From Syntrophorhabdaceae bacterium (GTDB taxonomy: Bacteria > Desulfobacterota > Syntrophorhabdia > Syntrophorhabdales > Syntrophorhabdaceae), in contig CAXXUO010000001.1 of the NCBI GenBank assembly GCA_963666485.2, positions 1,120,001 through 1,184,000 of the forward strand: a DNA stretch of 64,000 bases, written 5' to 3'. Of this stretch, positions 55,048-57,722 are shown one piece after another (position 1 is the stretch's first letter; each line of letters opens with the position of its first letter). The position numbers and the translations under genes are program-made. The notes under the pieces are model-generated. The model was not told where the DNA came from. It was given only the letters and a program-made list of their open reading frames with translations, and ran no database searches.

Positions 55048-56238
55048 CTATCGCCCGTTTTTTATCCCCAACTCCATAAAATACTGCCGTGACCGTTCAA
55101 TAACGTCCATGGGAATACAGTACGCCAGGCGGAAATGTCCCGGTGTCCCGAAGCCCACTCCCGGAACGGCGAGGATCTTATGGCGCTGCAGTTCTCTCAC
55201 GAAGGCGACGTCATCGGGTATGGGGGAGCGGGGAAAAATATAGAAGGCCCCCATCGGCCTGACGACGGTGAAGCCCGCCTTGACAAGGATGTCGTAGAGG
55301 ACGTCACGTTTTCTCTGGTACTCCATGATATCGACGCTGTTCCTCTGGAACTTCCCGACGAGGCGCTGCATGAGTGCCGGTGCGTTGATGAAGCCGAGGA
55401 TCCTGTTCGAGAATATCATCGCATCCATGAGCGGCCTCAAGTTGGCGATGCGCGGTGATGCCGCTATGTAGCCGATCCGCTCGCCCGGCAGGGCGAGGTC
55501 CTTCGAATGGGATGTTATGGTGATCGTATCGTCATATATATTGAAGACGTCGGGGAGGACTGTTCCATCATAGAGTATTTTCCGGTACGCTTCGTCGGAA
55601 AGGAAGAAGATCCTCTGGCCTTTCTCCCGGCGTTTGTTGAGGACCGCGGCCAGCTCCTTGAGTTCATCCCCGGTATATACGACACCGGTCGGATTGTTTG
55701 GCGAATTGACGATGATCGCCTTGGTCTTCCGCGTTATAGCTTTTTCGATCTTGCCGATATCGAGGTGAAAGTCCTCGGTGGTCTCGACGAGTTTCATTAT
55801 CCCGCCGTGATTTTCTATATAGAATTTAAACTCGACGAAAAACGGGGACAGGACGATAACCTCATTGCCGGGATCAAGCAGTGATTTCAAAACGACGTTC
55901 ATGCCGCCCGCAGACCCCACTGTCATGACAATGTGATCTTTCGTGAAGGGAAGGCCTGTTCTTGAGGCGTGGAATTCGGCGACGTCGGCCCGCACATCCT
56001 CGTAGCCGCTGTTTGTCATGTAGCGATGCATTCCCGCCGTGTCGGAGGTGACGATCCTGATCAGCTCCTCCTTCAACTGTTCGGGAGGTTCGATATCCGG
56101 GTTGCCGAGGGTAAAGTCGAGGATGTTCTCCGGGCCGTACGTCTTCTTCATTTTCTCGCCTTCCTCGAACATCGCCCGGATCCATGATGAATCCTTCATG
56201 GATTTGCTGATAGCTTTTGAGATACCCATTGTGATCAC
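55048..56238 (-). CDS. Class I/II PLP-dependent aminotransferase (paralogue 2)
   Basis: FTLGNP, NSPNNPTG, DEAY, SHSKDLALPGERIG, GAFY, VPG. Start GTG 56238 or ATG 56229. Confidence 0.92.
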   Translation of the reverse strand: MITMGISKAISKSMKDSSWIRAMFEEGEKMKKTYGPENILDFTLGNPDIEPPEQLKEELIRIVTSDTAGMHRYMTNSGYEDVRADVAEFHASRTGLPFTKDHIVMTVGSAGGMNVVLKSLLDPGNEVIVLSPFFVEFKFYIENHGGIMKLVETTEDFHLDIGKIEKAITRKTKAIIVNSPNNPTGVVYTGDELKELAAVLNKRREKGQRIFFLSDEAYRKILYDGTVLPDVFNIYDDTITITSHSKDLALPGERIGYIAASPRIANLRPLMDAMIFSNRILGFINAPALMQRLVGKFQRNSVDIMEYQRKRDVLYDILVKAGFTVVRPMGAFYIFPRSPIPDDVAFVRELQRHKILAVPGVGFGTPGHFRLAYCIPMDVIERSRQYFMELGIKNGR

Positions 56239-57425
56239 CTCTTTATGATACGTTTTCCTATCCTGATGAACCCTTCGATGCTGTTCTCTATCGTTCTCAT
56301 AGGGACACAGTACGCGATCCTGAAATACCCTTTCTTTCCGAAGCCCCTGCCGGGGACGACCATGATGCGCTCATCCTGCTGCAGGCTGCGAATGAAATCC
56401 AGTTCATCGGCGACGGGTGAGCGGGGGAACATGTAGAAAGCACCCCTGGGTTTCACACATTCAAACCCTCCCTCGACGAGAGCGTTGTAAAGGAGGTCGC
56501 GCTTGCGCTGGTATTCCCCGATATCCACCGATGTCCGCTGGAATTTGGACACGGCGCGCTGGAACAGGGCCGGTGCATTGACAAAGCCAAGCGTCCTCTG
56601 CGTGATCATGAGCCCCGACTGAAGAAGTTCGGCGTCGGGCAGGCGCGGTGATATAGCGAGATACCCTATTCTTTCCCCGGGCAACGCCAGGTCCTTGGAA
56701 TGCGAATTGATCGAACACGTGAGGTCATACGCCTTGAAGATGTTCGGAAGTTTAATGTCGTCAAAAACAAGTTTCCTGTACGCATCGTCCGCAATGAGGT
56801 AAATATCCTGGCCTTCCGACCGTTTCCTGTTAAGGAGCGTCACAAGGTCCGAAATGCTTTCCTCGGAATAAACGGCACCGGTCGGGTTGTTGGGGCTGTT
56901 GATGAGTATGGCGCGTGTCTTGGGGGTGATGGCATTGGCCAGCCGGTCGACATCGAGCTGGAAATCATCCTTTGACCTGACCGTCTTCAGTTTCCCGCCG
57001 TGGTTCTGCACGTAATTGCGGAATTCCCAGAAGAAGGGTGTAGGCACGATCACCTCGTCTCCCCGGTTGAGCATGACCTTCAGCAGAATGTTGAGCCCGC
57101 CGGCGGCCCCGTTCGACATGAAAACGTGTGAGGCGGTAAAGGGGAGCCCGTATATCTCGCTCAAGTAGTCGGCAACGTCCTGGCGCACCTCTTCGTACCC
57201 GCTGTTCGACATGTACCTGTGCATGCCTTTGACAGGATTGGCAAGCGCATCCATCAGCGTTTTCAGTAATATGTCGGGCGGTTCCGTATCGGGGTTGCCG
57301 AGGGAAAAATCATAGACGTTCTCCTCCCCGTACAGTTTCTTGATCTTGAGGCCTTCCTCGAACATCCTGCGGGTCCAGCCTTCCTGGTCTGCTATCAATT
57401 TTTGGATCTGTCGGGATACGATCAT
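56235..57425 (-). CDS. Class I/II PLP-dependent aminotransferase (paralogue 1)
   Basis: FSLGNP, NSPNNPTG, DDAY, SHSKDLALPGERIG, GAFY, VPG; RBS AAGGAG. Confidence 0.92.
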   Translation of the reverse strand: MIVSRQIQKLIADQEGWTRRMFEEGLKIKKLYGEENVYDFSLGNPDTEPPDILLKTLMDALANPVKGMHRYMSNSGYEEVRQDVADYLSEIYGLPFTASHVFMSNGAAGGLNILLKVMLNRGDEVIVPTPFFWEFRNYVQNHGGKLKTVRSKDDFQLDVDRLANAITPKTRAILINSPNNPTGAVYSEESISDLVTLLNRKRSEGQDIYLIADDAYRKLVFDDIKLPNIFKAYDLTCSINSHSKDLALPGERIGYLAISPRLPDAELLQSGLMITQRTLGFVNAPALFQRAVSKFQRTSVDIGEYQRKRDLLYNALVEGGFECVKPRGAFYMFPRSPVADELDFIRSLQQDERIMVVPGRGFGKKGYFRIAYCVPMRTIENSIEGFIRIGKRIIKR

Positions 57426-57443
57426 TTAAGCTCTCCTTATAAT

Positions 57444-57474
57444 AAAAAAGCCATGGGTGTATGCGGCCCATGGC
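57444..57474 (-). terminator. Second attenuator terminator (T2)
   Basis: Minus strand GCCATGGG-CCGCATACA-CCCATGGC followed by T6. Confidence 0.7.
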
Positions 57475-57476
57475 AT

Positions 57477-57515
57477 AAAAAAAGGGCCATGGGTTCCTTG
57501 CACCCATGGCCCTTT
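57477..57515 (-). terminator. First attenuator terminator (T1)
   Basis: Minus strand AAAGGGCCATGGGT-GCAAGGA-ACCCATGGCCC followed by T7. Confidence 0.8.
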
Positions 57516-57520
57516 GTGTG

Positions 57521-57595
57521 TCAGCACAAAGGTAGGCCCGGGTGCAAGCGCCTAAAGAAGAAAAAGCCAAAAAAGAAAGAGAACATCCTCATCAT
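57521..57595 (-). CDS. Phe-rich attenuator leader peptide (24 aa)
   Basis: MMRMFSFFFGFFFFRRLHPGLPLC has 8 Phe in 10 consecutive codons and lies between a promoter and terminator hairpins. Confidence 0.8.
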   Translation of the reverse strand: MMRMFSFFFGFFFFRRLHPGLPLC

Positions 57596-57601
57596 GCCAA
57601 C

Positions 57602-57630
57602 ATTAAAAAGCAAAGCAAATTTTTTGTCAA
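57602..57630 (-). promoter_or_regulatory. sigma70-type promoter of the leader/aminotransferase operon
   Basis: Minus strand TTGACA-N17-TTTAAT. Confidence 0.7.
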
Positions 57631-57693: not shown

Positions 57694-57722
57694 TTGACAT
57701 GACGGGGTTTTACACTTATAAT
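57694..57722 (+). promoter_or_regulatory. Consensus sigma70 promoter of the MoxR-VWA operon
   Basis: TTGACA-N17-TATAAT, perfect consensus. Confidence 0.85.

What the first reader, a model, noticed from the sequence alone, without database searches (positions are those of the whole stretch)
57430..57630. Unannotated phenylalanine-sensing attenuator upstream of two aminotransferases
Seen on the minus strand, in order: promoter TTGACA-N17-TTTAAT, a 24-codon ORF MMRMFSFFFGFFFFRRLHPGLPLC (8 Phe in 10 codons), a strong terminator with T7, then the aminotransferase RBS. The leader segment CTTGCACCC-G-GGCC is complementary to GGCC-AT-GGGTGCAAG in the terminator 5' arm and loop and encloses an inner CCTTTGTG/CACAAAGG stem, which makes an antiterminator. 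Established: this is the layout of pheL/pheM-type ribosome-mediated attenuation, best known for pheA and pheST in Gammaproteobacteria. Inference: Phe limitation induces these genes, so the enzymes probably act in Phe synthesis (prephenate or phenylpyruvate transamination). I know of no such attenuator described for aminotransferases in this lineage, but I could not search.
Basis: partly seen in the sequence, partly recalled or inferred. Interest (0 to 1): 0.8.

Follow-up and report, generated by a model that had tools for sequence, protein, structure and literature searches.

The report
Phenylalanine attenuator with twin terminators
A tiny gene packed with phenylalanine codons and two interlocked stop-transcription hairpins very likely switches on two aminotransferases when phenylalanine runs short, in an anaerobic bacterium whose genome shows no standard pathway for aromatic amino acids and carries matching tyrosine and tryptophan switches, so it likely rebuilds these amino acids from salvaged aromatic acids.

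Summary
The leader, promoter and hairpins are conserved in 59 of 60 Syntrophorhabdales genomes with the gene (the 60th is cut by a contig end). (1) A second terminator follows the first and is likely disabled by a relay (B:C frees D, D captures E). (2) The leader ORF is predicted to be leaderless. (3) Most relatives carry a mixed Phe+Tyr run; only 5 of 75 are Tyr-free. This genome has a trio on one RNA chassis: Phe (here), Tyr (a third aminotransferase) and Trp (trpB2-aminotransferase-IOR). One relative lost the Tyr enzyme and has Tyr codons in this leader again. The prephenate idea is not supported: no shikimate, PheA or TyrA gene was found in this 99%-complete genome, while IOR is in 42 of 42 good genomes. 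The enzymes likely aminate phenylpyruvate made from phenylacetate. No expression data or enzyme assay exists. The scan noted the same kind of twin-terminator Phe/Tyr device before on other DNA (e1-4398069, e1-9828515, e1-9988491). Verdict: new variant of a known kind.

The parts
57602..57630 (-). sigma70-type promoter (-35 TTGACA, 17 nt, -10 TTTAAT); +1 predicted at or next to the A of the leader ATG
   Evidence: TTGAC invariant in 69 of 69 aligned rows (rows were cut at this motif); -35 start to ATG 35-38 nt in 64 of 75 loci
57521..57595 (-). leader ORF, 24 codons, MMRMFSFFFGFFFFRRLHPGLPLC; predicted leaderless
   Evidence: SD-like motif between -10 and ATG in only 3 of 75 loci; His codon in frame with the ATG in 75 of 75 after two manual corrections
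57554..57583 (-). sensor: 8 Phe codons in 10
   Evidence: last aromatic codon lies 3-4 codons before the His codon in 72 of 75 rows as counted by the script
57535..57548 (-). segment B, 5' strand of the antiterminator (encodes Leu-His-Pro-Gly)
   Evidence: B:C 91.7% paired, 3 of 8 pairs with changes on both sides, 53 rows
57511..57532 (-). inner stem enclosed by the antiterminator, holding the leader stop codon
57477..57515 (-). hairpin 1 (C:D) with T7: first terminator and anti-antiterminator
   Evidence: 100% of cells paired in 69 rows, 29 double-sided changes at one pair
57444..57474 (-). hairpin 2 (E:F) with T6: second terminator; its 5' arm E can pair with D instead
   Evidence: E:F 98.5% paired with 4 of 8 pairs covarying; D:E 98.1% paired; at least 6 T in 8 nt after hairpin 2 in 74 of 74
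57433..57437 (-). Shine-Dalgarno AGGAG of aminotransferase 1
   Evidence: sequence
56235..57425 (-). aminotransferase 1, PRK06836 family, 396 aa
   Evidence: NF005305 524 bits, cut-off 376
55048..56229 (-). aminotransferase 2, PRK06836 family, 393 aa, 54% identical to the first
   Evidence: NF005305 542 bits

Best explanation
This is very likely a ribosome-mediated transcription attenuator that switches on two PRK06836 aminotransferases when charged tRNA-Phe is scarce, and the enzymes likely make phenylalanine from phenylpyruvate that this genome, in which no shikimate or prephenate gene was found, would obtain from phenylacetate by IOR carboxylation or by uptake. Shown in sequence: promoter, Phe-run ORF, four pairing options (B:C, C:D, D:E, E:F), their conservation, and the missing aro/pheA/tyrA genes. 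Modelled: a ribosome stalled with the last Phe codon in its A site leaves B free; B captures C, the freed D captures E, and neither terminator forms. A ribosome that passes the run covers B, so C:D and then E:F form and transcription stops. Inferred: leaderless translation, kinetic (co-transcriptional) control, the response to Phe, the substrate, and the source of the keto acid. The ancestral leader senses Phe+Tyr; it became Phe-only in a small clade that also carries a separate Tyr-attenuated aminotransferase.
For: Leader in 59 of 60 genomes with the gene, across 4 families. His codon in frame with the ATG in 75 of 75 over a spread of 11-25 codons, with TTT/TTC and TAT/TAC third-position variation. 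Pair counts. Folding with a ribosome block: stalled, B:C forms in 73 of 74 before D appears, and B:C plus D:E dominate in 73 and 71 of 74 once E appears; past the run, C:D forms in 74 of 74. The same chassis carries codons matched to the downstream gene: Phe+Tyr+Trp before DAHP synthase operons, Phe+Tyr before two of three pheA loci, Trp before trpB2, Tyr before a third aminotransferase. No aroC, chorismate mutase, PDT or PDH in G000, and no orthologue-level hit with relatives' own AroF, AroB, AroD, AroE, AroA, AroC, PheA or TyrA. Among 42 good genomes the aminotransferase is in 42, IOR alpha in 42, PDT in 16, AroC in 23. In 6 of 12 relative loci fetched around the second IOR alpha, a Trp leader heads trpB2-aminotransferase-iorA/B, as in G000. 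Dedicated DapL, HisC and an aspartate-aminotransferase-like gene lie elsewhere. G007 lost the Tyr aminotransferase within one contig and has two Tyr codons in this leader. Aryl acids feed a second aromatic pathway in M. maripaludis (PMC4162585, passages seen, citing Porat 2004).
Against: No transcript, ribosome or enzyme data. At equilibrium the terminators win even with a stalled ribosome: E:F in 55 of 74 full leaders and C:D over B:C in 41 of 74 just after D appears, so the switch must be kinetic, which I did not simulate. The PaaK-family genes score below the curated cut-off and do not lie beside the IOR genes; the main iorAB has no aromatic leader. About 550 nt separate trpB2 from the next aminotransferase in G000, so co-transcription with IOR is not shown. 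Outside the order only 8 of the 25 closest single-copy homologues carry such a leader. The link between Tyr loss and the Tyr enzyme rests on one lineage and one reversal, and G040 has the Tyr enzyme with a mixed leader. L085 lacks hairpin 2 and L021 has lost the leader stop codon. The cultured type strain has PDT.
Confidence: 0.75

Rival explanations
1. The attenuator is real, but the enzymes are prephenate aminotransferases of an arogenate pathway.
For: A mixed Phe+Tyr run suits a step shared by both amino acids; 26 of 61 relatives have PDT and 26 of 61 a PDH match.
Against: G000 shows no source of prephenate and no enzyme to use arogenate; the leader is kept in 34 genomes without a PDT match. 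Both enzymes have Ala at the position where, by my recall, class 1-beta aspartate/prephenate aminotransferases have Lys109 (56 of 56 and 55 of 55).
Confidence: 0.05
2. The attenuator is real, but hairpin 2 is only a duplicated back-up terminator; the D:E pairing is a by-product of the self-complementary CCATGG arms and plays no part in read-through.
For: C, D, E and F share one near-palindrome, so D:E pairs automatically; L085 manages without hairpin 2; at equilibrium E:F beats D:E in most full leaders.
Against: 24 of 27 departures in arm E keep D:E, by G-U wobble or a change on both sides; the other 3 belong to one group that could pair with a bulge. These are only about five independent events. 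In 14 of 74 leaders the U tract of hairpin 1 is weak while that of hairpin 2 is intact, so control must reach hairpin 2; without D:E a stalled ribosome could not open it.
Confidence: 0.25
3. The genome is a plain aromatic amino acid auxotroph: the enzymes only re-aminate aromatic keto acids taken up from partners or formed by turnover, or are broad hydrophobic aminotransferases, and IOR runs only catabolically.
For: IOR is reversible and common in anaerobes (established knowledge); the main iorAB has no aromatic leader; transporter genes also carry such leaders (L192, L241).
Against: An IOR-like cluster follows the Trp-attenuated trpB2 and aminotransferase in G000 and in 6 of 12 relative loci, a layout that suggests anabolic use.
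Confidence: 0.3
4. The U-rich run is not translated; it is a protein-binding or pausing site and the Phe codons are incidental.
For: U-rich DNA gives Phe codons by itself; no SD; no expression data.
Against: Frame kept across 10 different lengths, synonymous variation, and swaps to Tyr-only or Trp-only runs that match the downstream gene.
Confidence: 0.04

Closest known systems
E. coli/Salmonella pheL-pheA attenuator (Rfam Phe_leader RF01859, accession as given)
   Same: Short leader with a run of Phe codons; a stall frees a segment that forms the antiterminator (PMC3082878, passages seen).
   Different: No Rfam match here. Controls aminotransferases, not PheA; two terminators; leaderless start predicted; most relatives read Phe+Tyr; no strong protector hairpin in the model, so an untranslated leader would tend to read through.
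Salmonella/E. coli his operon attenuator (hisL)
   Same: Stalling on cognate codons gives an antiterminator (PMC10065794, passages seen). The two-step B:C + D:E versus C:D + E:F topology is recalled from Johnston et al. 1980, which was not held.
   Different: Here C:D carries its own U tract in most genomes, the four arms are copies of one CCATGG near-palindrome, and the chassis is reused with Phe, Tyr, Trp and apparently Leu runs.
Aryl-acid route to aromatic amino acids in Methanococcus maripaludis (IOR)
   Same: Aryl acids as precursors through indolepyruvate oxidoreductase (seen second-hand in PMC4162585; Porat 2004 itself not held).
   Different: There it is a second route beside a de novo pathway in an archaeon; here it would be the only route found, in a bacterium, and it is inferred from gene content only.
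PRK06836 aminotransferases (NCBIfam NF005305; structure 3ELE)
   Same: Both proteins pass the cut-off; 3ELE is the best PDB match, E 3e-85; PLP lysine and arginine are kept.
   Different: The family entry names no substrate; the tandem pair is seen only in this order among the genomes searched.

Membership tests
Ribosome-mediated transcription attenuators (pheL/trpL/hisL class) | short leader ORF with a run of cognate codons | tested here: met
Ribosome-mediated transcription attenuators (pheL/trpL/hisL class) | mutually exclusive antiterminator and intrinsic terminator with U tract before the first gene | tested here: met
   folding and pair counts only:
Ribosome-mediated transcription attenuators (pheL/trpL/hisL class) | a stall on the run leaves the antiterminator strand free; passing the run covers it | tested here: met
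   model with a 12-nt ribosome block from the P site; spacing kept in 72 of 75
Ribosome-mediated transcription attenuators (pheL/trpL/hisL class) | protector/pause hairpin 1:2 upstream of the antiterminator | tested here: inconclusive
   only a weak 5-bp hairpin in the terminated fold; not examined in relatives
Ribosome-mediated transcription attenuators (pheL/trpL/hisL class) | leader translated, and read-through responds to the amino acid | not testable with these tools
   needs Ribo-seq, Term-seq or a reporter
Rfam Phe_leader or T-box | match to the covariance model | tested here: not met
   9 weak matches up to E 10, none to these families, all below gathering score
PRK06836 aminotransferase (NF005305) | whole-protein score above 376 bits | tested here: met
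   524 and 542 bits
Class 1-beta aspartate/prephenate aminotransferase | lysine at the Lys109 position (feature recalled; source paper not held) | tested here: not met
   Ala108 in 56 of 56 and 55 of 55 sequences; position placed by the alignments
Class 1-beta aspartate/prephenate aminotransferase | a prephenate-forming and an arogenate-using enzyme in the genome | tested here: not met
Aromatic amino acid aminotransferase (EC 2.6.1.57) | activity with phenylpyruvate or 4-hydroxyphenylpyruvate | not testable with these tools
   needs an enzyme assay

The most novel reading that the evidence does not exclude
Syntrophorhabdales, many of which show no shikimate pathway, supply all three aromatic amino acids by carboxylating and aminating aryl acids, with one modular leaderless twin-terminator attenuator per branch. 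The codon run is an evolving label of each enzyme's job: it lost Tyr when a Tyr-specific aminotransferase arrived and regained Tyr when that enzyme was deleted. Reading these labels across the phylum would assign substrates to PRK06836 enzymes, an MBL-fold hydrolase, transporters and IOR paralogues, and would expose an undescribed shikimate-independent route, possibly fed by the aromatic compounds these syntrophs degrade.
Probability: 0.4. Interest if true: 0.78.

Novelty: new variant of a known kind. Interest (0 to 1): 0.62.

Why it matters
It gives a testable function to a widespread aminotransferase family with no named substrate and explains how an anaerobic aromatic degrader with no recognisable aro, pheA or tyrA genes could still make Phe, Tyr and Trp, which bears on predicted auxotrophies and cross-feeding in methanogenic communities. 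It also shows an attenuator chassis whose sensor codons are swapped gene by gene, including a Tyr-only leader, for which one paper search found nothing, with a natural gain-and-loss experiment.

Tried and rejected
Rfam: nothing at the locus and nothing, T-boxes included, around 20 outgroup homologue loci, 17 of them Firmicutes by title. Searches had the D:E and E:F helices one column out of register; those two helix counts are discarded and replaced. The first ribosome model blocked too far downstream and was replaced. Lysine-pathway role (dap genes nearby): rejected, the pair is on the other strand and a DapL above cut-off lies on C9. Archaeal-type ADH synthase route: the only look-alike in G000 scores as an LsrF-type thiolase and no partner of the second gene was found. 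The MFS gene behind the Tyr aminotransferase is found in only 1 of 5 close relatives searched, so it is not taken as part of the system. One search used an ORF that matched nothing. Papers asked for and not held: Porat 2004, Johnston 1980, Lopatovskaya 2010, Dornfeld 2014. By recall, Lopatovskaya 2010 predicts attenuators in delta-proteobacteria; it could cover related leaders and I could not check. Paper searches listed no paper on this leader, judged from listings and abstract starts; supplements were not read, and the genome-wide attenuator tables of PMC2965389 and PMC5314783 may list it. No structure or complex prediction was run.

Full report
Observation. The run of 8 Phe in 10 codons is unique in all six frames of the 3.77-Mb genome, and the ORF ranks first among 1219 short ORFs behind a TTGACN hexamer; the second is a Tyr run on contig C6. 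The antiterminator folds at -33.3 kcal/mol and hairpin 1 at -26.9, each better than 200 of 200 shuffles. Two features were missed: a second hairpin with six U's between hairpin 1 and the RBS, and a gap of only 6 nt between the -10 box and the ATG. Rfam has no matching family.

Genes and lineage. Both downstream genes pass the PRK06836 cut-off and are 54% identical. Named relatives are Syntrophorhabdus and kin, including the type strain S. aromaticivorans UI. The gene was found in 60 of 61 genomes of the order, nearly always as a tandem pair, and in 42 of 42 good-quality genomes. Across 151 genomes of the phylum 107 have a match, single outside the order.

Conservation of the leader. I parsed 60 handle loci and 16 further named loci (other named loci repeated handle loci or were outgroups; L083 and L108 come from one assembly). 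One locus is cut by its contig end, leaving 75. The His codon that starts strand B is in frame with the ATG in all 75, at 10 different distances from 11 to 25 codons. The ATG was taken by position, blind to frame, except in L047, where the first ATG is out of frame and I took the next; in L022 the script misplaced B and I corrected it. The run uses both TTT/TTC and TAT/TAC, and its last aromatic codon sits 3-4 codons before His in 72 rows. The ATG lies 35-38 nt from the start of the -35 box in 64 of 75, and an SD-like motif precedes it in 3 of 75, so leaderless translation is predicted. The run is Tyr-free in only 5 of 75.

RNA switch. Four helices are kept: B:C 91.7% of cells with 3 of 8 pairs changed on both sides, C:D 100%, D:E 98.1%, E:F 98.5% with 4 of 8 pairs covarying. 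Rows are related, so the shuffle controls overstate. Of 27 departures in arm E, 24 keep D:E, but they reduce to about five events. The U tract after hairpin 1 is weak in 14 of 74 leaders, that after hairpin 2 never. With a ribosome blocking up to 6 nt past the last aromatic codon, B:C forms in 73 of 74 leaders before D appears, and B:C with D:E dominates once E appears (73 and 71 of 74); with the ribosome past the run, C:D forms in 74 of 74. Against this: at equilibrium C:D beats B:C in 41 of 74 just after D appears, and E:F wins in 55 of 74 full leaders even when stalled. The switch therefore needs kinetic trapping, as attenuators generally do; I did not simulate it. The logic means induction by shortage, hence an anabolic job.

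A regulon on one chassis. A covariance model of the leader hits 61 of 61 relatives and further sites. In G000 there are three: Phe here, a Tyr-only run before a third aminotransferase, and a Trp run before trpB2, an aminotransferase and an IOR-like cluster. In relatives the run mostly fits the gene: Phe+Tyr+Trp before most DAHP synthase operons (Phe+Tyr only in L210), Phe+Tyr before pheA in L208 and L209 (L207 also has Trp), Trp before trpB2 in 6 of 12 loci fetched. Elsewhere in the phylum the script found aromatic leaders in 18 of 25 loci (one doubtful), but only 8 of the 25 closest single-copy PRK06836 genes have one.

Why Phe only. An orthologue of the Tyr enzyme was found in G000, 17 of 19 other genus genomes and G040. 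The Tyr share of the run averages 0.16 in 18 genomes with it and 0.40 in 41 without, but this is essentially one lineage, and G040 keeps a mixed run. The Tyr-free leaders fall in one clade (100/100; 31 rows, G001-G031 and G000 without the frameshifted G002). G007 lies inside that clade, shows on one contig the Tyr enzyme deleted and its attenuator decayed, and has two Tyr codons in this leader. It is one event, but the predicted one.

What the enzymes do. G000 (99% complete, 10 contigs) gave no match for prephenate dehydratase, prephenate dehydrogenase, chorismate mutase or chorismate synthase, families that ring in 13-14 of 14 control genomes. Relatives' own AroB, AroD, AroE, AroC, PheA and TyrA found nothing, and AroF and AroA only distant hits of 30% and 22%. 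Among 42 good genomes PDT is in 16, AroC in 23, IOR alpha in 42. Prephenate transamination thus has no substrate here, and both enzymes lack the lysine that I recall as the class 1-beta mark. DapL and HisC functions are covered by other genes. The simplest reading is amination of phenylpyruvate (and, in relatives, 4-hydroxyphenylpyruvate). Its likely source is phenylacetate, through a CoA ligase and IOR, the route reported for M. maripaludis (PMC4162585, passages, second-hand). This step is the weakest: the PaaK-like genes score below cut-off and lie elsewhere, the main iorAB has no leader, and uptake of keto acids would also fit. The type strain has PDT; there the same enzymes could finish the phenylpyruvate branch.

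Comparison and novelty. It works like pheL (PMC3082878, passages) with a relay that, by recall, resembles the his attenuator (PMC10065794, passages, confirms only the general mechanism). It is not a member of any Rfam family. Paper searches (listings and abstract starts) and term searches in PMC2965389 and PMC13759103 (passages) showed no description; PMC9309667 (passages) was seen for prephenate aminotransferases. The library lacks most subscription journals, and I could not see Lopatovskaya 2010 or any supplements. The scan's own notes hold the same kind of twin-terminator Phe/Tyr attenuator on other DNA; I had reached my reading before seeing them, and they are not independent support. New here, as far as those short notes show, are the Phe/Tyr/Trp trio in one genome without a shikimate pathway and the gain-and-loss link between sensor codons and enzyme set.

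Verdict. Real attenuator about 0.93; relay through D:E about 0.7; aromatic keto acid aminotransferases about 0.8; IOR as the source about 0.55. New variant of a known kind; interest 0.62.

Noticed in passing
G000:C6:64152-64324 (-), L243: Tyr-only leader MLRNDTSIRLTSYYYYYYSPGHSCRSFS on the same twin-hairpin chassis before a third aminotransferase (closest NCBIfam models PRK08912/PRK09082, below cut-off); orthologue in G000, 17 of 19 other genus genomes and G040.
   Followed up: yes
L158:1710-1860 (G000:C7): Trp leader MMNVQINNWWWWRKY before trpB2, an aminotransferase and an IOR-like cluster (split alpha, beta, second alpha); same order with a Trp leader in 6 of 12 relative loci.
   Followed up: partly
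L259:2700-3000 (G007): Decayed Tyr attenuator: altered -35, early stop in the leader, hairpins and aminotransferase gone, neighbouring MFS gene inverted.
   Followed up: yes
L202, L211, L212, L213, L214, L218, L219, L221: Phe-rich leaders, several Phe-only, before a conserved metallo-beta-lactamase-fold protein of about 307 aa of unknown substrate (PF00753 for L211).
   Followed up: no
L187, L188, L189, L196, L201: Phe/Tyr(/Trp) leaders before DeoC-family aldolases that look like archaeal-type ADH synthases in other families of the phylum.
   Followed up: no
L186:1350-1770 of the minus strand: Same chassis with a Leu-rich leader, read by eye, before a gene that looks like isopropylmalate synthase (motif recalled, not scanned).
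   Followed up: no
L192, L241, L242, L240: Aromatic leaders before an ABC binding protein (Phe), a TRAP DctP (Trp), a GNAT-domain protein next to an ADP-forming acyl-CoA ligase (Phe/Tyr) and near a thiolase.
   Followed up: no
window 56235-57425 and 55048-56229: The two paralogues differ consistently at residues 15, 16, 18, 133 and 137, which by alignment lie in or near the N-terminal helix and the side-chain pocket; they may differ in substrate.
   Followed up: partly
window 57694-57722 (+): Perfect-consensus divergent promoter (12 of 12) for an AAA ATPase and a VWA-like gene.
   Followed up: no
L021, L044, L058, L059, L060, L085: Oddities: leader stop lost (L021); about 115 extra nt between hairpin 2 and the gene (L044); aminotransferase matches in pieces or with a stop (L058, L059, L060); no second hairpin (L085).
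   Followed up: no
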